This document shows positions 26,362 to 61,337 of a stretch of 64,000 bases of DNA, one piece after another (position 1 is the stretch's first letter; every line of letters begins with the position of its first letter). The position numbers and the translations under genes were made by a program. The DNA is from an uncultured Candidatus Saccharibacteria bacterium (GTDB taxonomy: Bacteria > Patescibacteriota > Minisyncoccia > Minisyncoccales > CAYUYO01): NCBI GenBank assembly GCA_964449385.1, contig CAYUYO010000001.1, positions 36,720 to 100,719 of the forward strand, written 5' to 3'. Below the pieces are notes generated by a model that made no database searches, was not told the origin of the DNA, and saw nothing but the letters and a program-made list of their open reading frames with translations.

Positions 26362-27222
26362 CTAAGTCAAGCCCGCACAAAGTTTTGAATATATTATTTC
26401 AATCTCTTTCTTAGTTTTTAATTTCGTTTCTAAAATCGGAATTAAATTGCTAATCGCTTTAAAAATTTCTTTATTATAAGATATTTTCCCCAAAAATTTT
26501 TCCTTTGCCCATTTTTCTATTTTATTACTTAGTTCAGAATTAATATCCCATTTATTTATTACTATTTGGTAAGGAACCTTAAAATGATTAACTACTTCTA
26601 AAACTCTTTTTAAATCGGAAAATCCGGAAAGAGTTGGTTCGGTAATCAAAACTGTAAAATCAGCTCCTTGTAAAGAAGCGATTACCGGGCAGCCAGTTCC
26701 CGGAGCCGAATCAATAATCATTAAATCATATTTGAATTTTTCTGCTTCTTTTTTTATTTCAGCTACTACTTTGCCCGAACCAATTTCCCCGGGATAAAGC
26801 TGTCCGGAAACTAAAGGAAAATTATATTTATTTTTTTTAATTTTGATTTCTCCATTTTGAACCGGTTTTAATTTAATTGCTTTTTTAGGACAAATCGCTT
26901 CACAAGCCCCGCACCCTTCACATAAAAATGGATTTACTTTGGGTTTTCCATTAATCATTTTTATTGCCGAAAATCTGCAATTTTTAGCGCAAAGTCCGCA
27001 GCCATCACATTTTTTATAATCAATTTCTGGCCGAGCAGAAACTGTTACTGGTATAATTTTATCCCATTTTTTTACTCCTCCAAGCCAAATTGCCAAGTTA
27101 GGTGCATCAGAATCGCAATCCACTGCTACTATTTTTCTATCTTTGGCAAAAAGCATAGCCAAAGTCGAACACAACATTGATTTCCCTACTCCACCTTTTC
27201 CAGAAGCAATTACTAATTTCAT
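26362..27222 (-). CDS. MinD/ParA-superfamily P-loop ATPase with inserted 4Fe-4S ferredoxin domain
   Basis: Deviant Walker A GKGGVGKS plus two Cys clusters: CDGCGLCAKNC...CEGCGACEAICP. Confidence 0.75.
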   Translation of the reverse strand: MKLVIASGKGGVGKSMLCSTLAMLFAKDRKIVAVDCDSDAPNLAIWLGGVKKWDKIIPVTVSARPEIDYKKCDGCGLCAKNCRFSAIKMINGKPKVNPFLCEGCGACEAICPKKAIKLKPVQNGEIKIKKNKYNFPLVSGQLYPGEIGSGKVVAEIKKEAEKFKYDLMIIDSAPGTGCPVIASLQGADFTVLITEPTLSGFSDLKRVLEVVNHFKVPYQIVINKWDINSELSNKIEKWAKEKFLGKISYNKEIFKAISNLIPILETKLKTKKEIEIIYSKLCAGLT

Positions 27223-27785
27223 TTAAATTGTTCTAAGATTTTGAAATCTTCTTTTAAAGTTTCCTTCATATTGATATTATAAGTAACTACTGCTGGATGA
27301 TATAAAGGGATAATATTAATACTTTGAAAAAGGTTCTTGACTTTAAAAATCTCGCCATGGATTTTAGAAATTCCTTGAATTTGGTCTTTTAAACCATATT
27401 TTTCAAAAATATATTTTGTAGAGTAATTCCCTAAAGTACAAATTACTTTCGGCTTAATAATTTCAATCTGTTTTTCTAAATAAGGAGTACATGCTTCAAT
27501 TTCGTCTGCCTGAGGATTACGATTCTCCGGTGGGCGACATTTTAATATATTAGTAATATAAATTTCCTCTCTTTTTATTCCGGCTGATTCCAATAATTCA
27601 TCTAAAATTTTACCTGCTGCTCCGCAAAAAGGACGGCCAGTTTTTGCTTCATTTAATCCTGGTGCCTCACCAATAAACATTATTTTTGTTTGAGGATTTC
27701 CTTCTCCAAAAACTATATTTATTCTGGTTTTCCATAATTCACATTTCCTGCACTTCTCAACTTCTTTTTTTAGATCTTCCTTCAT
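27219..27785 (-). CDS. uracil-DNA glycosylase, family 4 (Fe-S type)
   Basis: CRKCELW...GEGNPQTKIMFIGEAPG...FCGAAG...HPA. ATGA-coupled to neighbours on both sides. Confidence 0.8.
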   Translation of the reverse strand: MKEDLKKEVEKCRKCELWKTRINIVFGEGNPQTKIMFIGEAPGLNEAKTGRPFCGAAGKILDELLESAGIKREEIYITNILKCRPPENRNPQADEIEACTPYLEKQIEIIKPKVICTLGNYSTKYIFEKYGLKDQIQGISKIHGEIFKVKNLFQSINIIPLYHPAVVTYNINMKETLKEDFKILEQFK

Positions 27786-28687
27786 GCTTTTAAAAAGCCG
27801 TTAATAATTAAATCTATCGCTTGTTTTTCCGAAAAACCTCGCATTCTCAAATAACTTAACTGTTCTCCGGAAATTCTTCCAATCGAAGCTTCGTGAGTAA
27901 GTTGAGCTAATTTATTTTTGCAAATAAGTTTTGGATCCAAAGAAATTACTGAATCTTTATCAACCATCAACCCCTGACAATCCAAATGTCCTTTACTTTC
28001 AGCTTCAGCTAAAATTTGAGAATAAGCCGAAATATTACTGCCTTTTTCTCCCACTAATCTAAGCTTTACTATTCCTGAAGCTCCTTTTTCAACTAATCGC
28101 AAAGTATCTTTAATTTCAGTTTCGGTTTGAGTACAATTTACTACAATTTTTACATTACAACTTGCTCCGGCGAAAACATCAAACGAGCTTACTATCTTAA
28201 GTTTTTTGGAAGTAAAAAGATTTTCATAGTTATAATCTAATTTTGAATTTTTTTCTAACAAAAATTTATAATCTGGCTCAACAATGTCTTCTCTACTCCA
28301 AGAATGAATATGTTTATATTTTAAAGTAGAACCTTCTTTTAAAATAATTTTTCCTTGAGCTTTATGAATTCCGCAAAGATTTTTACTTAGAGTATTACAA
28401 ACTCCCTGAATTTCTATATTTAAATTTTTTTCTAAAATCAAAAGATTTTGAAGCTCTTGATGAATTTTTTTTGAGGCAATAGAAACACAAGTAAAAAGAG
28501 GAAAGTCAACCTGTTTTTTCACCCAAATAAAATAACCTTCTTTTGGTTTCTTATTAAACCATTTTCTGCTCCATTTAAATTTTTCCCAAGCCTCAGGACT
28601 AGGTAAAATAATAATCCCTTTTACATCAAGAATATTTTTTGTTTTATGGTCAATCTGCCAAAAATGAGCACTTTTTACATTTTTCAT
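27782..28687 (-). CDS. sufD: Fe-S cluster assembly protein SufB/SufD family
   Basis: C-terminal EASIGRISGEQLSYLRMRGFSEKQAIDLIINGF matches the SufBD consensus. Adjacent to sufC. Confidence 0.7.
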   Translation of the reverse strand: MKNVKSAHFWQIDHKTKNILDVKGIIILPSPEAWEKFKWSRKWFNKKPKEGYFIWVKKQVDFPLFTCVSIASKKIHQELQNLLILEKNLNIEIQGVCNTLSKNLCGIHKAQGKIILKEGSTLKYKHIHSWSREDIVEPDYKFLLEKNSKLDYNYENLFTSKKLKIVSSFDVFAGASCNVKIVVNCTQTETEIKDTLRLVEKGASGIVKLRLVGEKGSNISAYSQILAEAESKGHLDCQGLMVDKDSVISLDPKLICKNKLAQLTHEASIGRISGEQLSYLRMRGFSEKQAIDLIINGFLKA

Positions 28688-29390
28688 AACCGTATTTTTT
28701 TATAGTTCGTAAAACTTTTCTATAATCTTTTTCCTTACAAATAATTTTACCTTCAACCATTACATTGGTAATTTTAGGTTTTAAAAAATTCAAAATAGCT
28801 CCAGAGTGAGTAATTAGTAAAATAGAAACATTTTTATCTATAAGCTCTTTTTTAATTATTTTTGAAACCTTTTTTAACTTTTCTAGATCTAATCCTGAAT
28901 CAATTTCGTCAAAAATCACTAATTTGGCTTTTGAAACTAAAACTTGTAGTAATTCGGATATCTTTTTTTCTCCACCGGAAAAATCTAAATTAATTTCTCG
29001 CTCCAATAATTGAGATTCACCTTCCGAACGTTTTAAGGTTGAACCTTGAGATATTCTCGTTTTTGAAATTTTTTCAAGAAGTTGAGAAAGTTTAACTCCT
29101 TTTATTATCGGCGGCGTCTGCCAAGTTAAAAACAGGCCTAATTTTACTCTTTTTTCCGAAGGGAATTTAGTAATTTCTTTTCCTCTAAAAAAAATCTTTC
29201 CGTCCACAACTTTATATTTTGGGTTCCCTAAAATTGTCTGGGCAAAAACGCTTTTCCCTGAACCATTCGGACCGAGTAATGCTTGAGTCTCCCCTTTCTT
29301 CATTTTTAAATTAACCCCTTTCAGTATCTCCTTTCCGTTTCTTTTAACTTTTAAATTTTTAATTTCAAAAAGCATATAAAAAAATTGCAA
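28650..29390 (-). CDS. sufC: Fe-S cluster assembly ATPase SufC
   Basis: ABC ATPase Walker A GPNGSGKS, signature FSGGEKK, Walker B VIFDEIDSGLD. Confidence 0.85.
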   Translation of the reverse strand: MQFFYMLFEIKNLKVKRNGKEILKGVNLKMKKGETQALLGPNGSGKSVFAQTILGNPKYKVVDGKIFFRGKEITKFPSEKRVKLGLFLTWQTPPIIKGVKLSQLLEKISKTRISQGSTLKRSEGESQLLEREINLDFSGGEKKISELLQVLVSKAKLVIFDEIDSGLDLEKLKKVSKIIKKELIDKNVSILLITHSGAILNFLKPKITNVMVEGKIICKEKDYRKVLRTIKKYGYEKCKKCSFLAD

Positions 29391-29412
29391 TTAATCCTGT
29401 CACATTGCTGAT

Positions 29413-29853
29413 TTATTGCTGAATATTTATAGTTGTAGAATCTTTCACATTAATATCTTTGTAGATTACTTCACAATTCAAAGTGTAATCTCCTGCTTTT
29501 ATTCCGCCACAAACATTACATCTCGGCAATTCATAAGAAAACGAAATTTTATTTATCCCCTTTTCTAAATCCAAAATTCTTTCCTTATTAAATCTACCAT
29601 TTATTCCCTCTACTTTAACAATAGTATCTTTTGTTCCAGAATTGGAATAAATCGCTATATCAAGATTTACTAATTCTGATGAATGGTATGTAGTTTTATC
29701 AGTAGAAATGTTTTCTATGGAAATCTCTGTTTGTGTTTCAGGTAATTTTTCAGATTGATTAGAAAAATTATTATATTCTTGTTTTAAAATATATCCTGAA
29801 ATAAGAACTAATCCTATTACTCCTAAAATTATAAAAAATAAAGTCTTTTTCAT
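29413..29853 (-). CDS. membrane-anchored/secreted hypothetical protein
   Basis: N-terminal hydrophobic segment LFFIILGVIGLVLISGY, 146 aa, no motif recognised. Confidence 0.4.
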   Translation of the reverse strand: MKKTLFFIILGVIGLVLISGYILKQEYNNFSNQSEKLPETQTEISIENISTDKTTYHSSELVNLDIAIYSNSGTKDTIVKVEGINGRFNKERILDLEKGINKISFSYELPRCNVCGGIKAGDYTLNCEVIYKDINVKDSTTINIQQ

Positions 29854-29864
29854 TTTTCCAATTT

Positions 29865-30068
29865 TTAACGGAGTGAATTTAATTCTTTAAGTAATTCTTC
29901 AAGGTCAATTTTATACATTTTGCAAACCTGACCGATTTTCAAATTTTCCATTTCAAATTTAGCAAAAGGACAATTTAAACAAGGCAAATCATATTTTGAT
30001 AAAATTTTCTCGGTTCCCGAGTATTTTAAAATCTCAGATAAGGTTGTATCTTTGGTAATTTTCAACAT
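29865..30068 (-). CDS. DUF1858-type redox-disulfide domain protein (hybrid-cluster-protein-associated family)
   Basis: LKITKDTTLSEILKY...KYDLPCLNCPFA...IDLEELLKELN matches my recollection of the DUF1858/TIGR03980 consensus. Confidence 0.5.
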   Translation of the reverse strand: MLKITKDTTLSEILKYSGTEKILSKYDLPCLNCPFAKFEMENLKIGQVCKMYKIDLEELLKELNSLR

Positions 30069-30071
30069 TTA

Positions 30072-30824
30072 TTAGCGAGTAAGCCATCCCCCGTCAACAG
30101 GTATCGTATGACCAGTAATATATTCCCCTTCTTCCGAACAGAGAAAGGCAACGGTATTAGCAATATCTTCTGGTTTACCTATTCTTCCGTAAGGAATATT
30201 GGCCATAAGTCCCGATTTAACCTCTTCCTGTGCCAGCATATCTTTGGTCATATCGGTAGCAATAACTCCTGGGGCAACAGCATTAACATTGATTTTATAT
30301 TTTCCCAATTCTAAAGCCAGCTCTTTTGTCATTGCTATTATTGCGCCTTTTGTAGCACAATAAACACTTGCCATTTCAAAACCGACAAAACCGGCAACAC
30401 TAGCAGTATTGACAATTTTACCGTAATTCTGCGATTTCATTTCGGGCAGTACATACTTTGTACATAAAATTGCACCCCTTAAGTTTATGGTTAATTCTTT
30501 ATCTATTGCCGAAGTTTCCATTTTATCTAATTCCTGCTGGATAAATATTCCGGCGTTATTCGCTAAAATATCAATTCTGCCAAATTTCTCTTTTACCGTT
30601 TTTACCGTTTGTTTAATTTCCTCTTCGTTTGTCACGTCCAATTTTAAAGCAAGTCCTTCTGAACCCAAACTTTCAATTTCTTCTACCACTTTTTGACAAT
30701 CCTCTTTTGAAATATCTGTTACTACAACTTTTGCTCCTTGTTTTGCTAATTTTAAGGCAATTGCTTTTCCGATTCCCCTTCTTGCTCCGGTGACAATAGC
30801 TACTTTGTTTTTTAAATCAGACAT
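30072..30824 (-). CDS. SDR-family oxidoreductase (FabG-like 3-oxoacyl-ACP reductase)
   Basis: TGARRGIGKA, NAG, catalytic YCATKGA. Confidence 0.8.
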   Translation of the reverse strand: MSDLKNKVAIVTGARRGIGKAIALKLAKQGAKVVVTDISKEDCQKVVEEIESLGSEGLALKLDVTNEEEIKQTVKTVKEKFGRIDILANNAGIFIQQELDKMETSAIDKELTINLRGAILCTKYVLPEMKSQNYGKIVNTASVAGFVGFEMASVYCATKGAIIAMTKELALELGKYKINVNAVAPGVIATDMTKDMLAQEEVKSGLMANIPYGRIGKPEDIANTVAFLCSEEGEYITGHTIPVDGGWLTR

Positions 30825-30867
30825 ATTTATTTATTTTTTATTGAATAATTTAAATTATAATCGACCT

Positions 30868-32052
30868 TTAAACTAATCCCAAAATCATAGCTATTCCTAA
30901 TCCTAAAATTATAAGACCGGAAATTAAATTAAGATATTTCAGATTTTTTGCTTCCCAACTTAAAATATTTTCTGTCCTGCTTAAACCAAAATAAACCATT
31001 AAAACTATAGCCAGCATCGGTAAAATAAATATTAAGTTATAAAGCAATAACCAGGGAAAAGCTTCACAGACACATAAGACGGATAAAATCCCACCGCAGA
31101 TAATATAAGGCCCGATAGTACAGGGAAGCAAAAATATCGTTACAAAGGCTCCGACCAGAAAAGCTCCTCGAGGACTGGTTACCTTATTAATAATTTTATC
31201 TACTCTTGGTGATATCTTACAAGTTGTTTTATTCTGAAAAAAATCTTTAAGACTAAAACAACCTAGTATTATCGCTCCCGCACCCAGAATTTTATAAAGC
31301 CACGGTCTAACAATAGTTAGTATCTGGATAAGCTGAAAAGATTTAATAATTATCAAACCGTAAATTAAATACATTATAAAAACCGAAGTAATAAAAGCTA
31401 ATCCGGCCAGTAAAACATTTTTTCTTTTGGAAGGATTATAACTTAAGATAGCAATAAGCATTAGAATTAAAACAGCCATAGCACATGGATTAACTGCATC
31501 AACCAACGCTAAAGAAATAATTTTGGAAAAAGTGAGCTTTGTTATGTTTTCTTCTATTGGCGGCTTTTCATTGTTATTTTCTTCCGGAATTATTTCCCCA
31601 TTCATCCAAACTTTTGGAGAACCTTGTAAAGAACTAATGTCTAATTCATTAAAACTAATCAAAGTCCCATCTATCATCGGACATTTGTTTCCATCAAGAG
31701 TTTCAATTTTTCCTCTAATATTTTCTAAAATCGGCTTATCCCCTGCTATATGCTCCTCTTGATTAAATATTATCAAAGGTATGCCTAATCCTGAATTATA
31801 TTTTTCATTATATTCGTAAAGCAGAGGAGCGTTTTCTTTTTGCTGATAAATTTCATATTCTATTATCACTAAATCAGGATATTCTTTCGGCAATTGCTCT
31901 AAAACTATTGGGTCTGCTTTAGCACAATGAGGACAGCCGATCCCGGTAAAATAAACTGCACAGGTAAAATCATTTTTAGCTAAACTAAAATTAGGAATTA
32001 AAAAAAATCCTAAAATTAAAATAATTATAATAAAAAATATTCTCTTATTCAT
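30868..32052 (-). CDS. CcdA/DsbD-family thiol:disulfide transmembrane electron transporter with N-terminal extracytoplasmic thioredoxin-like (CPHC) domain
   Basis: Signal/anchor, then GIGCPHCAKADP. The TM domain carries the two conserved CcdA Cys (DAVNPCAM and LLPCTIGPY). Confidence 0.7.
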   Translation of the reverse strand: MNKRIFFIIIILILGFFLIPNFSLAKNDFTCAVYFTGIGCPHCAKADPIVLEQLPKEYPDLVIIEYEIYQQKENAPLLYEYNEKYNSGLGIPLIIFNQEEHIAGDKPILENIRGKIETLDGNKCPMIDGTLISFNELDISSLQGSPKVWMNGEIIPEENNNEKPPIEENITKLTFSKIISLALVDAVNPCAMAVLILMLIAILSYNPSKRKNVLLAGLAFITSVFIMYLIYGLIIIKSFQLIQILTIVRPWLYKILGAGAIILGCFSLKDFFQNKTTCKISPRVDKIINKVTSPRGAFLVGAFVTIFLLPCTIGPYIICGGILSVLCVCEAFPWLLLYNLIFILPMLAIVLMVYFGLSRTENILSWEAKNLKYLNLISGLIILGLGIAMILGLV

Positions 32053-32680
32053 CTTTTACAAACAGTCCGCAATAACAATGGCCATCTTTTTCAATTTCTT
32101 CTTTATGCCATTGGCAAGGACAGATTTTAGGTCTATCTTCTTCTATATCTTCGGTTATTCTTCTACATGGACAATATCGAGCTCCATATTTTTTCTCGTT
32201 TACCAAAAGTCCTTTTATTAATCTTTCAACTGCTGTTTTATCAAGGTTTAATCTAAAACCGTTCTTCTTAGCATAGTCTTTATACCATTTAATCATCTCT
32301 TCTTTTTCTTCTTTCTCTTCGCCTTTATTTTTTATTTCTTCTTTCTCTTCTTCTTTTTTACTATCTTCTAACATTTTATCTAACATTTCTTTGACTGTCT
32401 GCTCTGGTCTCACTCCAATAAATCCACTAATCGGCTTTTCATTTTTAAATAAAATAACTGTGGGAATTTGATCGATTCCAAATTTTTGGGCAGTTTGACG
32501 AGCTTCATCTACATTAACTTCAGCTAAAATGACTTTATCTTCGTATTCTTGGGCTAATTTTTCCAAAATCGGCGATAATATATTACATGGTCCGCACCAA
32601 GTTGCCCAAAAATCAACCAAAACAGGTTTGTCAGCTTTCTCTAAAAATTGTTCAAAATTTTGATCAGTTAAATTAACCAT
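32045..32680 (-). CDS. thioredoxin fused to ferredoxin:thioredoxin-reductase catalytic-subunit-like domain
   Basis: N-terminal DFWATWCGPCNILSP (Trx WCGPC). C-terminal RYCPCRR...ICPCQ...GHCYC resembles the FtrB CPC/CPC/CHC Fe-S/disulfide centre. Start placed at MVNLTDQNF just after the ferredoxin stop. Confidence 0.65.
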   Translation of the reverse strand: MVNLTDQNFEQFLEKADKPVLVDFWATWCGPCNILSPILEKLAQEYEDKVILAEVNVDEARQTAQKFGIDQIPTVILFKNEKPISGFIGVRPEQTVKEMLDKMLEDSKKEEEKEEIKNKGEEKEEKEEMIKWYKDYAKKNGFRLNLDKTAVERLIKGLLVNEKKYGARYCPCRRITEDIEEDRPKICPCQWHKEEIEKDGHCYCGLFVKDE

Positions 32681-32681
32681 T

Positions 32682-32867
32682 TTATTTTTTTGATGTTTCC
32701 TCAATCGCTCCCATTGGACAAATACTTTCTCCTCCGCATTTTTCAAGTTTTTCCGAATTAATAATTTCGGCTTTACCATCTTTTCCTATTTGAGTTGCTT
32801 CAGGACAATTTGCTACGCAAAGACCACAACCAATACATTTTTCTTTGTTCACCTTAAATTTTGCCAT
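32682..32867 (-). CDS. 4Fe-4S ferredoxin
   Basis: 61 aa, CIGCGLCVANCP ... CGGESICP. Confidence 0.8.
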   Translation of the reverse strand: MAKFKVNKEKCIGCGLCVANCPEATQIGKDGKAEIINSEKLEKCGGESICPMGAIEETSKK

Positions 32868-32910
32868 AATATATTTTTAATTTAATTTCCAATTATTTAA
32901 ATTTGTCTTA

Positions 32911-33744
32911 TTACTTATTAAAGCTTAAAAGTTTTCCCTTAGAATAAGCCTCAACCAGTTTTTTAGAATAAGGAATCTCTTTTTCGATTTTTATCTTAAA
33001 TTTTTTGGAAATTTTTTCAATTGTTTTTTTATTTCCTAAATCTGACTGATTTAAGATTATTTTTGCTTTAATTTTTAGTTTTTTACATAAATCCAAAATT
33101 AAATTTAAATCAGAAGCTCCCATTGGAGTTGGTTCGGTAACGCAAAAAGCCAAATCACAGTCCAATAAAGCAGAAATTACTGGACAGTGAGTGCCGGCAG
33201 CAGTATCAAATAAAATATAGTCTATTTTATTTTTTTCTGCAAATTTTAAAGCAAAGTTTTTAACTTCGGTAACCACTGGCCCAGTTTCTTCCAATCCAGG
33301 ATTAGCTGCTCCTGTTACCAGCCAATAATCTTTTTTAATTTGAGTAAGATAAATTTGTCCTGTTTCTTCTTTTTGAGGTTTAATCGCTCCATAAGGACAA
33401 ACTATCCAACAGGCACCGCAACCTGAACATAAGTCTTTAAGAAAAACCGGATACTGGCCAGGAGCTTGAAAGATAGCATTACTTCGACAAGTTTTGGTAC
33501 ACAAACCACATTTAGTACATTTTTTTTTAATTAATTTTGGAAACTCAGCATAAACTTTTTGTCGAGGTTTTCTTAATTTTTGTCCTAAAAGAAGATAATC
33601 ATTAGGACATTCAACATCACAATCACAAAGAATAACTTTTTTATTTTTCCTAACTAATTTATTGGCAAATAAAATAGCAACAGTTGATTTCCCGACGCCT
33701 CCCTTTCCTCCTGTTATACTTATAGTTTTAATTCTCTGAGCCAT
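32911..33744 (-). CDS. MinD/ParA-superfamily P-loop ATPase with inserted 4Fe-4S ferredoxin domain (second copy)
   Basis: GGKGGVGKST plus CTKCGLCTKTC...CSGCGACWIVCP. Confidence 0.75.
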   Translation of the reverse strand: MAQRIKTISITGGKGGVGKSTVAILFANKLVRKNKKVILCDCDVECPNDYLLLGQKLRKPRQKVYAEFPKLIKKKCTKCGLCTKTCRSNAIFQAPGQYPVFLKDLCSGCGACWIVCPYGAIKPQKEETGQIYLTQIKKDYWLVTGAANPGLEETGPVVTEVKNFALKFAEKNKIDYILFDTAAGTHCPVISALLDCDLAFCVTEPTPMGASDLNLILDLCKKLKIKAKIILNQSDLGNKKTIEKISKKFKIKIEKEIPYSKKLVEAYSKGKLLSFNK

Positions 33745-33749
33745 TTCTT

Positions 33750-34991
33750 TTATTTTTTCCTGGTTGGTTCTTCTAAAAGTTTAAGTTTTTCTTTCGAAAA
33801 TTTCTCTAAAAGTTCTTTTACACTTCCATCTACTCCCTGATAAACATCTACTACGTTATCTCTTAAAGTATGGAGAGAAATCGGTCCCATTTCTTTAGTA
33901 ATGATTGAATCAATTTTTTCTTCCAATACAAAATTTGAAGCTTCCAGCCCAGCTCTCATTTTTCTTTCTAAAAAAGGATTGTTCTTAAAATAAAAACTTT
34001 TAACTTCCCCTTTTTCAAATTCAATAAACATAAATTTTTTAGCTCTTCCAAAATGATTTGAAATCTCAGAATCCAAACCTTTTTCTTCTTCTATTGGAAT
34101 AGATAGTTTATGACTATCGGCAATTTCCGGAGCTATTCCAACTATTAAAGAATCTATAGTCTTCACTTTGTTTTTTATTTCTCTTTCAATATTGTTTGAA
34201 ATTTCCCTGGCTCGATTAATACTTACGCTCCGCCCCAATTTAACCTGAACTTCTCCAAAAATAAAAGGACCGGCTTTTCTCAATCTCAATCCTTTAAATC
34301 CCCTTACCCCGGAAATATTCTCCAAAATTTTTTTTATCTTTTCCTCTATCTCTTTACTGGGAGAAACATCCATTAAAGCAAAAATTGAATCTTTAGCGGA
34401 TTCAATTCCTATTTTAAAAATAAAAAAGGAAATTAAAATTCCCATAATTCCCTCCAAATACATAATTCCAAACCACCTGGCAAACAAACCGATTAAAACA
34501 ATTCCAGAAGAAAACAAATGCATTCTGGATTCTTTCCCGTCTGTCATTAAACTTTGAGAATTAATTTTCTGGCCTATTTTCATCTCATAGGTTCCAATAA
34601 AAAACATTACTATAGCATCCAATATTGCCACTCCAATTGCTATCAAAGGAATATTTAGTTCTCCTAAAGTAAAAATTTTACCAATAGCTTCTTTAATTAT
34701 TTCAAACCCAGCAAATAAAATTAAGCCGGAAATAATTAAAGCTGTAATATTTTCTACTTTGTAAAAGCCATAAGGAAATTTTTCAGTTGAAGGCTTTTGA
34801 GCAATTTTTAAACCAAACCAGGCAAAAAAGGTAGAAAAAGAATCAGCAGTACTATGAATAGCATCTGCCAATAAAACAACACTTCCAGAAATAAAACCTG
34901 CTACAGCTTTGGCTATAGCAAATAAAACGGTAACAGTTCCTGCTATCAATGCTGCTTTTTGCCCTTTTTTAAAAATATCTATATCTGCCAT
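33750..34991 (-). CDS. cation-diffusion-facilitator (CDF) transporter fused to a C-terminal NifX/NifB-like (dinitrogenase FeMo-cofactor-fold) domain
   Basis: CDF TM core (LLADAIHSTADS...). The C-terminal ~110 aa (HFGRAKKFMFIEF...GPISLHTLRDNVVDVYQG) parallels the standalone NifX-like protein at 35009-35413. Confidence 0.65.
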   Translation of the reverse strand: MADIDIFKKGQKAALIAGTVTVLFAIAKAVAGFISGSVVLLADAIHSTADSFSTFFAWFGLKIAQKPSTEKFPYGFYKVENITALIISGLILFAGFEIIKEAIGKIFTLGELNIPLIAIGVAILDAIVMFFIGTYEMKIGQKINSQSLMTDGKESRMHLFSSGIVLIGLFARWFGIMYLEGIMGILISFFIFKIGIESAKDSIFALMDVSPSKEIEEKIKKILENISGVRGFKGLRLRKAGPFIFGEVQVKLGRSVSINRAREISNNIEREIKNKVKTIDSLIVGIAPEIADSHKLSIPIEEEKGLDSEISNHFGRAKKFMFIEFEKGEVKSFYFKNNPFLERKMRAGLEASNFVLEEKIDSIITKEMGPISLHTLRDNVVDVYQGVDGSVKELLEKFSKEKLKLLEEPTRKK

Positions 34992-35008
34992 ATTATTCTA
35001 TTCTTTAT

Positions 35009-35413
35009 CTATCTCCCTCTCCTTCTCCTATCAAACCCTCTGCCTTGACCTAAACCAAAATGACCAGGAGCAGTAGGCATTTTTTCTTCCTTTAATTCTC
35101 CTTTATTATATTTATCAAGAGTTTCTTTAACCGTTAAATCAAACACTCCAGGATAAATTTTAATTCCTGACATTTGTAAAACTGAAAAAGCATTGGGACC
35201 AAAATTTCCACAAATTACAATTATAGCTCCTTCTGAAACTACAAGTTGAGATGCTGCTACTCCAGCTCCTTTTCCAGATTGAACAGCTTGATTTGGAATA
35301 GCTTTAAATTCTTTGCTCTCTGAATCTATAATTAAAAAATAAGGGCAACGGCCAAAAATCGGCGAAATCTGAGAATTTAAATCAGGTCCAGTAGCACAAA
35401 TACAAATCTTCAT
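35009..35413 (-). CDS. NifX/NifB-like dinitrogenase FeMo-cofactor-family domain protein with Gly/Arg-rich tail
   Basis: MKICICATGPDL...IFGRCPYFLIID...VICGNFGPNAFSVLQMSGIKIY is typical of the family; tail GLGQGRGFDRRRRGR. Confidence 0.65.
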   Translation of the reverse strand: MKICICATGPDLNSQISPIFGRCPYFLIIDSESKEFKAIPNQAVQSGKGAGVAASQLVVSEGAIIVICGNFGPNAFSVLQMSGIKIYPGVFDLTVKETLDKYNKGELKEEKMPTAPGHFGLGQGRGFDRRRRGR

Positions 35414-35421
35414 AAATAAAT

Positions 35422-35634
35422 TTAGCGGTTTCGGGTCATTGAAGTACCGCATTTAGGACAGTGCTGCTCATAACAAGGAACACCTTGCTGGTGAGGAACT
35501 TTGTTTCCACATTTATGACAAATACATTCTCCTGAAGGTCCTAATCCAAAACCGCCAGATTGGCGACCTCTACCCCCTTTACCTAAACTTTGGCCTCCTC
35601 CTAATCTTTGACCAGATCCGCGTCCGTTAAACAT
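35422..35634 (-). CDS. Gly/Arg-rich small protein with C-terminal Cys-rich zinc-ribbon-like motif
   Basis: GRGSGQRLGGGQSLGKGGRGRQSGG...CICHKCGNKVPH...CPKCG. Confidence 0.45.
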   Translation of the reverse strand: MFNGRGSGQRLGGGQSLGKGGRGRQSGGFGLGPSGECICHKCGNKVPHQQGVPCYEQHCPKCGTSMTRNR

Positions 35635-35635
35635 A

Positions 35636-35935
35636 TTATTTTTTGTTTTTTTTAGTTTCTAATTCTTTTATTCTTTCTTCAATTGCTTTCATCTCTTCTC
35701 TTAAAACTTCTAAATCTTCACCTAATATTTCTTTTTCTTCTTTCGGAGTAGGAAGTTCTGGAGAATAAAAAGGATAGTTTCCCCAACCTCTACCTAAACC
35801 TCTACCAAATCCTCTCCCCCAACCAAATCCATAGGGATTCATATAGCCAGGATAAGGATATCCAGAACAATAACCAAATCCCCTTCCGGTTCTTGGTCCC
35901 AAACCTCTAGGACCCGTTCTATCTCCACGTGGCAT
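35636..35935 (-). CDS. DUF5320-like Gly/Arg/aromatic-rich protein with C-terminal coiled coil
   Basis: MPRGDRTGPRGLGPRTGRGFGYCSGYPYPGYMNPYGFGWGRGFGRG... then KEEKEILGEDLEVLREEMKAIEERIKELE. Family assignment is from memory. Confidence 0.5.
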   Translation of the reverse strand: MPRGDRTGPRGLGPRTGRGFGYCSGYPYPGYMNPYGFGWGRGFGRGLGRGWGNYPFYSPELPTPKEEKEILGEDLEVLREEMKAIEERIKELETKKNKK

Positions 35936-46419: not shown

Positions 46420-47655
46420 TCAATATCCTTTCAATTTTTTAAGGGAGCGATGTTCTCTGACACGCTCTAATGCTTTAGCTTCAATCTGACGAATTCTCTC
46501 CCTGGTAACTCCGAATACCTGGCCAACCTCTTCTAAAGTATGAGTAACACCATCGTCTAATCCAAATCTCATTTCTAAAATTTTTTGTTCTCGAGGAGTT
46601 AAATCAATTAAAATTTCTTCTAGTCTTTCTCTTAATAAAGTTCTGGCCGCTGTTTTTGACGGAGACGGAACTTTTTCATCTTCAATAAATTCCGACAAAA
46701 CACTGTCTTCTTCATTATCTCCAACCGGCGTTTCCAGAGAAATAGTTTCTTGAGAGATTTTCATAATATGGCGTACTTTATCCACTTCAATTCCCATTTC
46801 AGAAGCAATTTCTTCCGGTAAGGGATCCCTGCCCAAACCCTGTAAAAGTCTTCTCCTTGCTTGGGTATATTTGGAGATAGTTTCCACCATATGAACCGGT
46901 ATTCTAATAGTTCTTGCCTGGTCAGCCAAAGCCCTGGTGATCGCCTGTCTTATCCACCAAGTAGCATAGGTTGAAAATTTATATCCCCTTCTCCAATCAA
47001 ATTTCACTACTGCTCGGAATAATCCTAAATTTCCTTCTTGAATTAAATCAAGCAAGGTTAAATTTGGGCTGCGACCAATATATCTTTTAGCAATAGAAAC
47101 AACTAATCTTAAATTAGCTTTGGCAAGTTTTTTCTTTGCATCTTCGTCCCCTTTTTCAATTCGTTTAGATAACTCTTTTTCCCCTTCTGCAGTCAAAAAA
47201 GAATAAGAACCAATTTCTTTTAAATACATTTGAATCGGGTCAATTTTTGATGCCAAACGTTTTTTAGCTGGTTTAGAAGCATCTAAATCTAGAAATTCCT
47301 TGACTTCTTTCACTTCAATTCCTTTTTTTTCTAATTCATCATATAATTTCTCTAATCCATTAATATCCTTTTCCATTTCAGGGAAAGAGGTTAAAATTTC
47401 CGAAGACGTAATAAAACCACGCTGTCTTCCTTTTTCCATTAATTGCTGAATTTTCTCTTCGGTGAAAATCTTTTTAGATCTGCTAGATACAGTTTTTGCT
47501 TTCTTTTTTGTTTTCTTGATTGCTTTCTTAACTACTTTCTTGGTTATTTTTTTGGTAATCTTCTTAACTGTTTTCTTAGTTGCCTTCTTGACTACTTTTT
47601 TAACTGCTTTTTTGGTCGTTTTCTTTTTTATTTTTTTTGTTTTTTTCTTTTTCAT
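46420..47655 (-). CDS. rpoD: RNA polymerase sigma factor RpoD (sigma-70) with Lys-rich KKxxKK N-terminal repeats
   Basis: Regions 2-4 present ([14 protein letters not shown]...; region 4 [20 protein letters not shown]). N-terminal ~55 aa of (T/V)KK repeats. Confidence 0.9.
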
Positions 47656-61253: not shown

Positions 61254-61335
61254 GCCGCGGTGATGAAATTGGCAAACATGCTGGCTTCAGGAGTCAGTGC
61301 TAAAAAGCTTGTGGGTTCGAGTCCCACCCGCGGCA
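61254..61335 (+). tRNA. tRNA-Leu (anticodon CAG), class II, no encoded CCA
   Basis: Acceptor GCCGCGG/CCGCGGC, D-arm ATG-AAATTGGCAAA-CAT, anticodon stem CTGGC/GTCAG, loop TTCAGGA, long variable arm, T-arm GTGGG-TTCGAGT-CCCAC. Confidence 0.75.
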
Positions 61336-61337
61336 CT

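What the first reader, a model, noticed from the sequence alone, without database searches (positions are those of the whole stretch)
30868..32867. Three-gene operon encoding a complete ferredoxin-driven transmembrane disulfide-reduction relay
Three consecutive minus-strand genes encode a 61-aa 4Fe-4S ferredoxin, a thioredoxin (WCGPC) fused to a C-terminal domain with the CPC...CPC...C(H/Y)C arrangement of the ferredoxin:thioredoxin reductase catalytic subunit, and a CcdA/DsbD-type membrane electron transporter fused to an extracytoplasmic thioredoxin-like CPHC domain. Read together, this predicts electron flow from ferredoxin to the FTR-like Fe-S/disulfide centre, the fused thioredoxin, CcdA, the external CPHC domain, and finally envelope substrates. 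The relay does not depend on NADPH, which is plausible for a fermentative symbiont lacking NADPH-thioredoxin reductase. Each link is a known family; the fused, self-contained operon is the notable part.
Basis: inference. Interest (0 to 1): 0.6.

Follow-up and report, generated by a model that had tools for sequence, protein, structure and literature searches.

The report
Ferredoxin-driven thioredoxin fusion beside CcdA-like protein
Three tightly packed genes in a probable candidate-phyla-radiation bacterium encode a small ferredoxin, a thioredoxin fused to its own iron-sulfur reductase, and a membrane protein that could carry reducing power to the cell surface; the parts are real and would need no NADPH, but the trio is a local arrangement rather than a conserved module.

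Summary
Three minus-strand genes are packed together: a 1-nt gap, then an 8-nt ATGAATAA overlap. They encode a 61-aa single-cluster [4Fe-4S] ferredoxin, a WCGPC thioredoxin fused to an FTR-catalytic-subunit domain (PF02943, E 1e-22), and a 394-aa membrane protein.

Two corrections. The FTR domain is the archaeal/bacterial ferredoxin:disulfide reductase (FDR) type (CPC-x14-CPC-x12-CYC; best PDB match 4TPU), not the plant type. The membrane domain does not match Pfam DsbD. It sits on the SfLAP cut-off, and only some homologs hit DsbD_2. It does have six predicted helices and invariant NPC (TM1) and LPCTxGP (TM4) cysteines, plus a secreted Trx/Grx-fold CPHC domain at its N-terminus.

The proposed relay (ferredoxin, FTRc centre, fused Trx, membrane cysteines, external CPHC) is the most likely reading here, but it is inferred. 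Other FTRc domains are fused to ferredoxin, glutaredoxin or thioredoxin, which supports the first two steps.

The trio is not conserved. Only 1 of 10 other unbiased Trx-FTRc contexts has even a distant membrane homolog nearby. The fusion is widespread (over 1,000 clusters) and looks like a general cytoplasmic reductase. No trxB lies in the 64 kb; whether the genome lacks it is untested.

The parts
32682..32867 (-). 61-aa single-cluster [4Fe-4S] ferredoxin. C11-x2-C14-x2-C17 ... C50-P are the likely cluster ligands. C21 and C44 are an extra pair, as in Thermotoga/Pyrococcus-type ferredoxins.
   Evidence: Pfam Fer4_15 E 4e-9 and Fer4_13. Sequence read. A 69%-identical homolog sits immediately upstream of Trx-FTRc in L001. 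Ligand assignment is by analogy with known monocluster ferredoxins (own knowledge).
32369..32680 (-). Thioredoxin domain of the fusion (residues 1-104), with active site W28-C29-G-P-C32, buried Asp23 and cis-Pro73.
   Evidence: PF00085 E 6e-32; TIGR01068 117.6 bits above its 96.8 cut-off. Foldseek TM-score 0.92 to thioredoxins. D23, W28, C29, P31, C32 and P73 are invariant in 28 homologs, while the middle residue of WCxPC varies.
32300..32368 (-). Glu/Lys-rich linker (residues 105-127). In homologs its length ranges from about 13 to about 80 residues.
   Evidence: Alignment A1. AF2 models it as a long helix with low pLDDT (57) around residues 111-120, and overall pTM is 0.55.
32048..32299 (-). 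FTR-catalytic-subunit-like domain of the FDR type (residues 128-211). Motif: C170-P-C172 ... x14 ... C187-P-C189 ... x12 ... C202-Y-C204. By alignment, the cluster ligands are C170, C187, C189 and C202, and the redox-active pair is C172/C204.
   Evidence: PF02943 E 1e-22. Best PDB matches are 4TPU (M. acetivorans FTR-like/rubredoxin protein), E 6e-17, and 7PWE, E 4e-16. Plant and cyanobacterial FTRc score only 2e-7 to 7e-4. All six Cys are invariant in 28 homologs, and residue 203 varies Y/F/H/L. Cys roles are transferred from the alignment to Synechocystis FTRc and published FTR chemistry (own knowledge).
31978..32052 (-). N-terminal signal peptide or membrane anchor of the 394-aa protein (MNKRIFFIIIILILGFFLIPNFSLA).
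   Evidence: Hydropathy peak 2.66 and a K/R-bearing N-terminus. AF2 helix at residues 3-17.
31588..31977 (-). Predicted extracytoplasmic Trx/Grx-fold domain (residues about 26-155). C40-P-H-C43 and C31 are invariant, C124 is nearly invariant, and cis-Pro92 is invariant.
   Evidence: AF2 pLDDT about 90-94 with a beta-alpha-beta-alpha-beta-beta-alpha fold. Foldseek probability 1.0 to glutaredoxins and thioredoxins. The family profile hits ScsC/DsbA-like proteins at E 4e-4. Invariant residues. Net acidic, 12 K+R versus 25 D+E.
30871..31530 (-). Six-helix membrane domain (residues 175-394). N188-P-C190 in TM1 and L309-P-C311-T-x-G-P in TM4 are invariant. CcdA-like in architecture, of the LysE/DsbD superfamily.
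   Evidence: AF2 helices with breaks at both Pro-Cys motifs. K/R-rich loops alternate as expected for an N-out topology. Invariant residues. SfLAP 33.2-35.6 bits against a cut-off of 35, with no DsbD hit. Among 37 homologs, 30 hit SfLAP and 6 hit DsbD_2. 5VKV CcdA: TM-score 0.40, probability 0.66. JGI names several homologs 'cytochrome c biogenesis protein CcdA/thiol-disulfide isomerase'.
32911..35935 (-). Upstream co-directional context: DUF5320 (35636-35935), a Gly/Arg-rich zinc-ribbon protein (35422-35634), a NifX-like Nitro_FeMo-Co protein (35009-35452), a CDF transporter fused to a Nitro_FeMo-Co domain (33750-34991), and a Mrp/MinD-type P-loop ATPase with a 2x[4Fe-4S] insert (32911-33744).
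   Evidence: Pfam and NCBIfam. A promoter-like site (11 of 12 matches) at 36008-35980 lies just upstream of DUF5320. The same gene set accompanies Trx-FTRc in L012, L014 and L096. In L101 it accompanies a plain thioredoxin in the same position. In L098 it lies about 7 kb from Trx-FTRc.
26362..30824 (-). Downstream co-directional context: SDR (30072-30824), a DUF1858/TIGR03980 redox-disulfide protein with a CLNC motif (29865-30068), an anchored 146-aa protein with a CNVC motif (29413-29853), SufC (28650-29390), a SufB/D-like protein (27782-28687), a UDG-superfamily glycosylase (27219-27785), and a second Mrp/Fer4 ATPase (26362-27222).
   Evidence: The order membrane gene, SDR, DUF1858 recurs in L099.

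Best explanation
The locus encodes an NADPH-independent thiol-reducing chain.

1. Reduced ferredoxin delivers single electrons to the [4Fe-4S] cluster of the FDR-type FTRc domain. The donor is probably the adjacent 61-aa monocluster protein, or any low-potential ferredoxin.
2. The cluster works together with the C172/C204 disulfide, as in ferredoxin:thioredoxin reductase and Methanosarcina FDR, and reduces the WCGPC disulfide of the thioredoxin tethered to it. The reduction may occur in cis or across a dimer.
3. That thioredoxin is the cell's general cytoplasmic disulfide reductant.
4. In this lineage one of its clients is the translationally coupled membrane protein. Its two membrane-embedded cysteines (NPC190 and LPC311) shuttle the reducing equivalents across the membrane, as in CcdA/DsbD.
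5. They pass them to its own N-terminal extracytoplasmic CPHC Trx-fold domain, which reduces or isomerises disulfides, or handles thiophilic metals, in envelope proteins.

Shown here: gene order and coupling, domain identities, conserved cysteines, and predicted folds and topology. Inferred: every electron-transfer step, the identity of the ferredoxin donor, and the envelope substrates.

The Trx-FTRc fusion is a general-purpose module found in many contexts. The three-gene arrangement is a lineage-specific juxtaposition inside a conserved Fe-S/metal-homeostasis cluster.
For: - Tight coupling of the three genes.
- Strong HMM matches for Trx, FTRc and ferredoxin.
- The FTRc domain aligns without gaps to the FDR structure 4TPU, including all six Cys. 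All six are invariant in 28 homologs.
- Published FDR reduces thioredoxin-type proteins with ferredoxin, as cited in PMC6262447.
- Fusion ('Rosetta-stone') evidence: other FTRc-like domains are fused to a 2x[4Fe-4S] ferredoxin (P0260), a glutaredoxin (P0255) or a thioredoxin (P0244, P0249, P0259, P0340).
- The membrane protein has a signal/anchor, a Trx-fold domain with an invariant CxxC and cis-Pro, six helices, invariant Pro-Cys motifs in TM1 and TM4, and positive-inside loops consistent with N-out.
- ScsC-like sequence similarity of the external domain. CcdA is the only real membrane-protein structural match.
- Membrane-gene homologs lie near a thioredoxin-domain gene in the window, L012/13, L014/15, L100 (plain Trx 0.2 kb away) and L101 (plain Trx about 5 kb away).
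- No TrxB in 64 kb.
Against: - The trio is not conserved. Among 10 unbiased Trx-FTRc contexts, only L096 has a membrane homolog in the flank, and it is distant (23% identity). The closest relatives (66-71% identity) instead follow a CsoR-like gene.
- The small ferredoxin is adjacent only in the window lineage and L001.
- The membrane domain fails the Pfam DsbD model and is nearer to SfLAP/GAP, a family annotated for lipid export.
- The structural match to CcdA is weak (TM-score 0.40).
- CPHC is the classic DsbA (oxidase) motif (own knowledge).
- AF2 gives no confident Trx-FTRc docking (pTM 0.55).
- No biochemical data exist for any member that I could find.
Confidence: 0.55

Rival explanations
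1. There is no dedicated relay. Trx-FTRc is simply the organism's general cytoplasmic ferredoxin-dependent thioredoxin system. It would serve targets such as class III ribonucleotide reductase, peroxiredoxin/AhpD-type proteins and Fe-S assembly or repair. Its adjacency to the membrane gene would be a by-product of both genes belonging to one syntenic cluster, and the membrane protein would accept electrons from whatever thioredoxin is present.
For: - Trx-FTRc occurs in many contexts without the membrane gene. These include next to NrdD (L001), after CsoR and before a Mrp/Mbh-type hydrogenase (L097, L103), alone (L098, L102, L104), and next to NifS/NifU (L002).
- Membrane-gene homologs pair with plain thioredoxins (L100, L101), or with no thioredoxin but a TrxB-like gene 7 kb away (L099).
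- The window cluster is rich in Fe-S functions: SufC, SufB/D, two Mrp/Fer4 ATPases and NifX-like proteins.
Against: In the window the two genes overlap by 8 nt, which implies co-translation and matched dosage. The rival differs from the best explanation mainly in degree, since a general thioredoxin would still feed the membrane protein.
Confidence: 0.3
2. The membrane protein is not a thiol-disulfide electron transporter. It would be a LysE-superfamily exporter, either of the GAP/SfLAP type or a metal transporter, whose CxxC domain and membrane cysteines bind a thiophilic metal or sense redox state. That would fit its place in a metal-homeostasis cluster.
For: - The best Pfam match is SfLAP (30 of 37 homologs, best E 8e-12), and NCBI names one homolog 'GAP family protein'.
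- A weak ArsG-permease hit.
- Neighbours include a CDF transporter, and in relatives ZIP and ABC-3 metal transporters and a Fe-dependent repressor.
- The external domain resembles ScsC, a copper-tolerance protein.
Against: - The invariant pair of Pro-Cys motifs at mid-membrane in TM1 and TM4, together with a fused secreted Trx-fold CxxC domain with cis-Pro, is the hallmark of DsbD-superfamily electron transfer (PMC3322552).
- No lipid-synthesis or MmpL-type genes are nearby.
- ScsC itself is a substrate of a DsbD-family reductase (PMC3322552).
Confidence: 0.1
3. The system runs in the oxidative direction. The DsbA-like CPHC domain would introduce disulfides into secreted proteins, and the membrane cysteines would carry the electrons inward to oxidised thioredoxin/FTRc. 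This would substitute for the DsbB or VKOR pathway in an organism without quinones.
For: CPHC is the canonical DsbA active-site motif (own knowledge). The external domain's best sequence matches are DsbA-like proteins.
Against: Passing electrons from a DsbA-type couple up to a thioredoxin/FTR/ferredoxin chain is strongly uphill (published potentials, own knowledge). No terminal oxidant is evident. The closest matches (ScsC) are kept reduced by DsbD-family proteins (PMC3322552).
Confidence: 0.05

Closest known systems
Ferredoxin:disulfide reductase (FDR) of Methanosarcina acetivorans/barkeri (PDB 4TPU)
   Same: Closest solved relative of the C-terminal domain (E 6e-17). It has the same CPC-x14-CPC-x12-CYC motif and no variable subunit. 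It is reported to use ferredoxin to reduce thioredoxin/NrdH-type proteins (PMC6262447).
   Different: FDR carries a C-terminal rubredoxin domain, and its thioredoxin-type substrate is a separate protein. Here the substrate thioredoxin is fused at the N-terminus and there is no rubredoxin.
[quoted passage not shown]
   Same: Same Pfam family (PF02943) and the same six-cysteine [4Fe-4S]-plus-disulfide centre. The same logic of ferredoxin on one face and thioredoxin on the other.
   Different: Only a distant match (E 2e-7 to 7e-4). The spacing differs (x16/x8 versus x14/x12). CHC replaces CYC, and the position is not even conserved here. FTRc needs the FTRv subunit, which is confined to oxygenic phototrophs (PMC9025218). 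Its thioredoxin is not fused.
NTRC (NADPH-thioredoxin reductase with a fused thioredoxin module)
   Same: The same design idea: a thioredoxin reductase and its thioredoxin in one polypeptide (PMC9025218).
   Different: NTRC is a flavoenzyme that uses NADPH, with the Trx module at the C-terminus. It is unrelated in sequence and fold to the FTRc domain. This is an analogy only.
CcdA / DsbD / ScsB membrane electron transporters with ScsC-type partners
   Same: Two essential membrane cysteines next to prolines. Electrons come from cytoplasmic thioredoxin and go to an extracytoplasmic Trx-fold protein (PMC3322552). The architecture is six helices with N-out topology. The external domain resembles ScsC.
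   Different: No match to Pfam DsbD, and only some homologs reach DsbD_2; SfLAP is the nearest model. The Trx-fold partner is fused to the N-terminus. In DsbD the fused Trx-fold domain is at the C-terminus. In Mycobacterium DipZ it is also C-terminal (own knowledge). With CcdA it is a separate protein.
Ferredoxin-dependent flavin thioredoxin reductase (FFTR, Clostridium; PDB 6GND)
   Same: Another NADPH-independent, ferredoxin-driven way for anaerobes to reduce thioredoxin.
   Different: FFTR is a TrxB-like flavoprotein, not an Fe-S/disulfide enzyme, and is not fused to thioredoxin. A TrxB-like gene that appears to lack the HRR NADPH motif was seen in a relative (L099) but not in this window.

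Membership tests
FTR catalytic subunit family (Pfam PF02943 FeThRed_B) | HMM match above the curated cut-off | tested here: met
   80.4 bits against a cut-off of 22, E 1e-22, residues 160-244 of the long ORF.
FTR catalytic subunit family (Pfam PF02943 FeThRed_B) | Six cysteines arranged CPC...CPC...CxC (four cluster ligands plus a redox-active pair) | tested here: met
   C170, C172, C187, C189, C202 and C204 are present and invariant in 28 homologs. They align to the Cys of 4TPU, 7PWE and FTRc structures.
Plant/cyanobacterial-type FTRc (strict sense) | CPC-x16-CPC-x8-CHC spacing with the catalytic His, and pairing with the FTRv subunit | tested here: not met
   Spacing is x14/x12, and Tyr replaces His (variable Y/F/H/L in homologs). 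FTRv was not searched for, and it is reported only in oxygenic phototrophs (PMC9025218).
FDR-type FTRc-like proteins (4TPU group) | Sequence closest to FDR, with CPC-x14-CPC-x12-CYC | tested here: met
   4TPU E 6e-17 and 7PWE E 4e-16, ungapped across the motif.
FDR-type FTRc-like proteins (4TPU group) | Binds a [4Fe-4S] cluster and catalyses ferredoxin-dependent disulfide reduction | not testable with these tools
   Requires anaerobic protein chemistry.
Thioredoxin (PF00085 / TIGR01068) | HMM above cut-off, WCGPC active site, cis-Pro, Trx fold | tested here: met
   TIGR01068 117.6 bits against 96.8. WCGPC found. P73 invariant. TM-score 0.92 to thioredoxin structures.
Single-cluster [4Fe-4S] ferredoxin | CxxCxxC...CP motif in a protein of about 60 aa; single-cluster Pfam models | tested here: met
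   Fer4_15 E 4e-9 and Fer4_13 E 3.5e-6. Motif read.
CcdA/DsbD family (Pfam PF02683 DsbD) | HMM match | tested here: not met
   No hit at E up to 10 for the isolated membrane domain or at E up to 0.01 for the whole protein. HMMER filters may hide very weak matches.
DsbD superfamily (broad: CcdA, DsbD, ScsB, DsbD_2) | Two conserved cysteines within TM1 and TM4, next to prolines | tested here: met
   N188-P-C190 and L309-P-C311-T-x-G-P are invariant in 37 homologs. Both lie at helix breaks in the AF2 model.
DsbD superfamily (broad: CcdA, DsbD, ScsB, DsbD_2) | Detectable sequence or structural homology to a known member | tested here: inconclusive
   DsbD_2 is hit by 6 of 37 homologs (best E 2.7e-5) but not by the window protein. 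5VKV: profile E 1.4; Foldseek TM-score 0.40, probability 0.66.
DsbD superfamily (broad: CcdA, DsbD, ScsB, DsbD_2) | Six-helix core with the N-terminus outside, and an extracytoplasmic Trx-fold partner | tested here: met
   By prediction only. Six helices. K/R counts of 3, 0, 7, 0 and 2 in successive loops fit an N-out topology. A secreted Trx-fold CPHC domain is fused.
DsbD superfamily (broad: CcdA, DsbD, ScsB, DsbD_2) | Receives electrons from cytoplasmic thioredoxin and reduces the external partner | not testable with these tools
   Only gene-neighbourhood support: a thioredoxin-domain gene lies within 5 kb in the window, L012, L014, L100 and L101.
SfLAP / GAP family (Pfam PF11139) | HMM match above the curated cut-off | tested here: inconclusive
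   33.2 bits for the whole protein and 35.6 bits for the isolated membrane domain, against a cut-off of 35. 30 of 37 homologs match at E up to 1.
SfLAP / GAP family (Pfam PF11139) | Association with glycolipid or sulfolipid synthesis and export genes | tested here: not met
   No such genes in the window cluster or in nine related contexts. The neighbours are thiol-redox, Fe-S and metal genes.

The most novel reading that the evidence does not exclude
The Trx-FTRc fusion is the main, perhaps the only, thioredoxin-reducing system of many candidate-phyla-radiation bacteria. It would be a one-polypeptide, ferredoxin-powered thioredoxin system replacing NADPH-thioredoxin reductase. It would be wired through a previously unrecognised CcdA-like family, currently annotated as 'GAP family' or hypothetical, to the cell envelope of organisms that have no quinones or cytochromes. 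The redox state of the episymbiont's surface proteins would then be set directly by its fermentative ferredoxin pool.
Probability: 0.3. Interest if true: 0.65.

Novelty: new variant of a known kind. Interest (0 to 1): 0.45.

Why it matters
Thioredoxin reduction in bacteria is usually credited to NADPH-dependent TrxB. Ferredoxin-dependent Fe-S reductases are textbook only for chloroplasts and cyanobacteria, with one studied archaeal offshoot (FDR).

A widespread fusion (over 1,000 clusters at 90% identity) tethers that reductase to its own thioredoxin in small-genome, mostly Patescibacteria-type anaerobes. It would tie thiol redox control directly to the fermentative ferredoxin pool. No paper on it turned up in my searches.

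The membrane partner belongs to a large family (over 1,700 clusters) that is mostly unnamed; the few names sources give range from 'hypothetical' and 'GAP family' to JGI's 'CcdA'. It carries the hallmarks of a thiol-disulfide electron transporter. Re-annotating it would give these organisms an envelope-reducing pathway that has not been described for them.

Both predictions can be tested directly with standard anaerobic biochemistry and dsbD/ccdA complementation.

Tried and rejected
1. The genome-contig scan with the single fusion protein returned only 4 fusion loci among 10 hits.
2. The metagenome-contig scan with alignment A1 was swamped by the thioredoxin pattern. All 80 loci kept were plain thioredoxins, useless for context.
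4. Six literature searches found no paper on Trx-FTRc fusions or on FTR in candidate-phyla-radiation bacteria. A search for the 7PWE entry also found nothing. The FDR papers PMC6005431 and PMC4697749 and the supplement of PMC3322552 are not held.
5. I looked for CcdA genes in the fetched loci to build a reference profile and found none.
6. I tested whether PDB 7PWE is a solved Trx-FTRc fusion. Its N-terminal 75 residues do not align with thioredoxin.
7. I asked AF2 whether the Trx active site docks on the FTRc centre.
8. I searched the window for trxB, NrdD, the GltB-like FMN protein and DUF134. All are absent; only UDG is shared with L001.
9. Rfam and tRNA scans show no RNA feature in the region.
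10. I rejected the longer 244-aa reading of the Trx-FTRc ORF, because it overlaps the ferredoxin gene and homologs start at the downstream ATG.


Full report
**1. Observation**

- Ferredoxin: 32682-32867, 61 aa.
- Trx-FTRc fusion: 32045-32680, 211 aa.
- Membrane protein: 30868-32052, 394 aa.

The ORF lister extends the second gene to 32779. That extension overlaps the ferredoxin gene, and 27 homologs begin at the downstream Met. The ATG at 32680, 1 nt after the ferredoxin stop, is therefore the start. The second and third genes overlap by 8 nt (ATGAATAA). The motifs WCGPC, CPC-x14-CPC and CPHC each occur once in the 64-kb window, all in these genes.

**2. The ferredoxin**

It matches the single-cluster models Fer4_15 (E 4e-9) and Fer4_13. 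Its pattern is C11xxC14xxC17...C50P with an extra pair C21/C44. From my own knowledge, this is the layout of Thermotoga/Pyrococcus-type monocluster ferredoxins.

**3. The Trx-FTRc fusion**

The N-terminal 104 residues are a bona fide thioredoxin.
- PF00085, E 6e-32.
- TIGR01068 scores 117.6 bits against a cut-off of 96.8.
- The model superposes on thioredoxin structures at TM-score 0.92.

The last 84 residues match FeThRed_B (PF02943) at 80 bits against a cut-off of 22.

Against solved structures, the closest relatives are not plant or cyanobacterial FTRc (E 2e-7 to 7e-4). They are the Methanosarcina acetivorans FTR-like/rubredoxin protein 4TPU (E 6e-17) and 7PWE (E 4e-16). Both align without gaps through CPC-x14-CPC-x12-CYC. 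The canonical enzyme has CPC-x16-CPC-x8-CHC.

The 4TPU group is the ferredoxin:disulfide reductase (FDR) type. It is reported to reduce thioredoxin-type proteins with ferredoxin in Methanosarcina (PMC6262447).

In 28 homologs the six Cys are invariant. The residue between the last two Cys varies (Y/F/H/L). The thioredoxin motif is WCxPC with x = G, M, S, Q, T, A or E. The Glu/Lys-rich linker varies from about 13 to about 80 residues.

AF2 models both domains confidently (mean pLDDT 92), but pTM is only 0.55. The model therefore does not say how the Trx site meets the FTRc centre.

**4. How common the fusion is**

A search of 5.8 billion clusters (at 90% identity) gave 1,109 hits. All of the best 120 carry both domains, at 55-100% identity to the query. 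Where they have a name it is usually just 'thioredoxin'. Named sources include Patescibacteria, Nealsonbacteria and Parcubacteria MAGs and a Humimicrobiaceae MAG.

A phmmer of the FTRc domain alone against 1.84 billion representatives found 688 clusters at E up to 1e-3. Most are stand-alone proteins of 85-130 aa.

The longer ones show that the domain is modular. It is fused to:
- thioredoxin (P0244, P0249, P0259, P0340);
- glutaredoxin (P0255);
- a 2x[4Fe-4S] ferredoxin (P0260);
- a CoA-binding domain (P0254, P0263);
- a SLOG domain (P0266);
- a sestrin-like domain (P0331).

In 4TPU it is fused to rubredoxin. A donor fused in one lineage and acceptors fused in others is classic fusion evidence for ferredoxin to FTRc and FTRc to Trx/Grx.

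**5. The membrane protein**

It opens with a signal peptide or anchor helix. Next comes a beta-alpha-beta-alpha-beta-beta-alpha domain (pLDDT about 90-94), then six membrane helices. TM1 and TM4 are broken at Pro-Cys motifs.

Thirty-seven homologs share C40xxC43 (mostly CPHC), C31, cis-Pro92, N188-P-C190 and L309-P-C311-T-x-G-P as invariant residues; C124 is nearly invariant. Successive loops carry 3, 0, 7, 0 and 2 Lys+Arg. The N-terminal domain is net acidic. This is the pattern expected if the CPHC domain is outside the cell.

The family profile hits ScsC/DsbA-like proteins at E 4e-4. Foldseek gives Grx/Trx folds for the N-domain at probability 1.0. CcdA (5VKV) is the only genuine membrane-protein match, and it is weak (TM-score 0.40, probability 0.66).

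- There is no hit to Pfam DsbD.
- The nearest model is SfLAP/GAP, right at its cut-off (33.2 to 35.6 bits against 35).
- Among homologs, 30 of 37 reach SfLAP and 6 of 37 reach DsbD_2 (best E 2.7e-5).
- JGI calls several homologs 'cytochrome c biogenesis protein CcdA/thiol-disulfide isomerase', while NCBI calls one 'GAP family protein'.
I count this only as a lead.

I conclude that it works like a CcdA with a fused external partner. It is a distinct family within the wider LysE/DsbD superfamily, not a member of CcdA/DsbD in the strict sense. The superfamily placement of SfLAP is from my own knowledge.

**6. Genomic context in the window**

The three genes sit in a co-directional run from 35935 down to 26362:
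- DUF5320;
- a Gly/Arg-rich zinc-ribbon protein;
- a NifX-like protein;
- a CDF transporter fused to a NifX-like domain;
- a Mrp/MinD ATPase with a ferredoxin insert;
- the trio;
- an SDR;
- a DUF1858/TIGR03980 'redox disulfide' protein with a CLNC motif;
- an anchored Cys-containing protein;
- SufC and a SufB/D-like protein;
- a UDG-superfamily glycosylase;
- a second Mrp/Fer4 ATPase.

An adenylate-kinase-like gene and then the S12/S7/EF-G operon follow. The best promoter-like site (11 of 12 matches) is upstream of DUF5320, not of the ferredoxin. The overall promoter count is no higher than in shuffled sequence. The trio is therefore the tightest part of a larger Fe-S/metal/thiol cluster, not a free-standing operon.

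**7. Conservation of the arrangement**

The exact arrangement was seen only in a 99%-identical contig (L011).

Starting from Trx-FTRc proteins chosen without regard to neighbours gave 10 other contexts.
- L001: DUF134, a GltB-like FMN protein, ferredoxin, Trx-FTRc, an MBL-fold protein, UDG and NrdD.
- L002: UDG, Def, a ZIP transporter, ferredoxin, ArsR, NifS and NifU.
- L003: only tblastn with the window proteins was run, and it found no ferredoxin or membrane homolog in the flanks; the neighbouring genes were not read.
- L004: NifX-like genes, the GltB-like protein, Trx-FTRc, then MBL, UDG and further genes, then Mrp/Fer4, CDF, DUF134 and ferredoxin.
- L096: the NifX, CDF, Mrp/Fer4 cluster, with a 23%-identical membrane homolog 3.2 kb downstream.
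- L097 and L103: a CsoR-like gene, Trx-FTRc, then a Mrp/Mbh-type membrane hydrogenase.
- L098, L102 and L104: Trx-FTRc with none of the window's thiol-redox partners beside it. In L102 and L104 it follows a CsoR-like gene.

So 1 of 10 has any membrane homolog in the flank. The small ferredoxin is adjacent in 1 and within 2-5.5 kb in 2 more.

Starting from the membrane protein:
They have Trx-FTRc one or two genes upstream. In L014 the gene in between is an AhpD-like CMD protein.
- L100 (unbiased) has a plain thioredoxin 0.2 kb downstream and a ferredoxin 2 kb upstream.
- L101 (unbiased) has a plain thioredoxin in the position that Trx-FTRc occupies elsewhere.
- L099 (unbiased) has no thioredoxin in the flanks. 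It has a glutaredoxin 2 kb away and a TrxB-like flavoprotein 7 kb away.

The membrane family therefore does keep company with thioredoxin-domain genes. Trx-FTRc does not depend on the membrane family.

**8. Mechanism**

The best-supported reading is the chain below.
1. Reduced ferredoxin donates electrons to the [4Fe-4S]/C172-C204 centre.
2. The centre reduces the tethered thioredoxin.
3. The thioredoxin reduces general cytoplasmic clients.
4. In this lineage it also reduces the C190/C311 pair of the co-translated membrane protein.
5. That pair reduces its external CPHC domain.
6. The CPHC domain acts on envelope proteins.

The direction is downhill on published potentials for ferredoxin, FTR, thioredoxin and the DsbD cascade (own knowledge). 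Every transfer step is inference.

The main rival differs in emphasis: Trx-FTRc is a general reductase and the adjacency reflects shared synteny. Minor rivals are a metal or lipid exporter with a metal-binding CxxC domain, and an oxidative DsbA-like role.

**9. NADPH independence**

This covers only 64 kb. The genome-wide claim is untested. The L099 relative shows that TrxB-like genes exist in the group. That gene appears to lack the HRR NADPH motif, by my reading of the translated sequence.

**10. Novelty and score**

Each part belongs to a known kind. Thioredoxin is fused to an FDR-type FTRc domain, and a Trx-fold domain is fused to the N-terminus of a CcdA-like protein. Both architectures are catalogued in databases. 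I found no publication on the Trx-FTRc fusion; the membrane family itself was not the subject of a literature search.

I rate this a new variant of a known kind, of moderate interest (0.45). The more ambitious reading is that this fusion is the principal thioredoxin system of many candidate-phyla-radiation bacteria and feeds a new envelope-reducing family. That reading is not excluded (probability about 0.3).

Noticed in passing
window 47652-50528 (-): The DnaG primase ORF is 958 aa. An intein with a LAGLIDADG homing endonuclease (residues about 77-449) is inserted just after the CHC2 zinc ribbon. A relative (L104) has an intein-free 585-aa DnaG.
   Followed up: no
P0254, P0255, P0260, P0263, P0266, P0331: FDR-type FTRc domains are fused not only to thioredoxin. 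Other partners are glutaredoxin, a 2x[4Fe-4S] ferredoxin, CoA_binding_2, a SLOG (YAcAr) domain and a sestrin/PA26-like domain. This suggests a modular family of ferredoxin-driven disulfide reductases with varied substrates.
   Followed up: partly
L097 9712-18322; L103 6471-14572; L102 6745-7693; L104 6718-7693: The closest relatives of the window's Trx-FTRc are preceded by a CsoR/RcnR-family repressor gene (PF02583). In two cases a Mrp/Mbh-type group-4 membrane hydrogenase cluster follows, hinting at metal- or persulfide-responsive regulation and a link to ferredoxin-dependent energy conversion.
   Followed up: partly
L001 4196-6322: An anaerobic class III ribonucleotide reductase (NrdD-like, 708 aa) lies 1.7 kb downstream of ferredoxin and Trx-FTRc. 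This recalls the published FDR-to-NrdH-to-NrdD pathway of Methanosarcina barkeri. No NrdD is present in the window.
   Followed up: partly
L099 452-1420: A TrxB-like flavoprotein (TIGR01292, 313 bits, below its 343 cut-off) has a CTAC active site but appears to lack the HRRxxxR NADPH-binding motif. It may be a ferredoxin-dependent or otherwise atypical thioredoxin reductase.
   Followed up: partly
window 26362-35935 (-); also L012, L014, L096, L098, L101: A conserved cluster lies upstream of the S12/S7/EF-G operon. It comprises DUF5320, a Gly/Arg-rich zinc-ribbon protein, NifX-like proteins, a CDF transporter and two Mrp/MinD ATPases with ferredoxin inserts, often with DUF134, a GltB-like FMN protein, UDG and an MBL-fold protein. 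Its collective function is unknown but looks related to Fe-S or metals.
   Followed up: partly
window 35422-35634 (-); L004 6714-7763: The 70-aa zinc-ribbon protein (CICHKCG...CPKCG) is a separate gene in the window. The same motif forms the C-terminus of the CDF transporter in L004, a fusion that links the two proteins functionally.
   Followed up: no
window 29865-30068 (-): The DUF1858 protein matches TIGR03980 'hybrid cluster protein-associated redox disulfide domain' (51 bits against a cut-off of 45) and carries a CLNC motif. The order membrane gene, SDR, DUF1858 recurs in L099.
   Followed up: partly
alignment A2 columns about 200-345: About two thirds of the aligned membrane-protein homologs (455-520 aa) carry an extra domain of about 70-100 residues between the external Trx-fold domain and TM1. 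It is absent from the window protein and its function is unknown.
   Followed up: no
window 61254-61336 (+): A tRNA-Leu(CAG) overlaps the first 77 nt of the mechanically called RNase J ORF (GTG at 61260). The true RNase J start is probably further downstream.
   Followed up: no
L002 (DATKUR010000007.1); L003 (CAZMJP010000003.1): Contigs labelled Humimicrobiaceae (Actinomycetota) and 'Gammaproteobacteria' carry Trx-FTRc genes 61-63% identical to the window's. L002 also has Patescibacteria-like neighbours (UDG, Def). The cause could be mis-binning or horizontal transfer.
   Followed up: no
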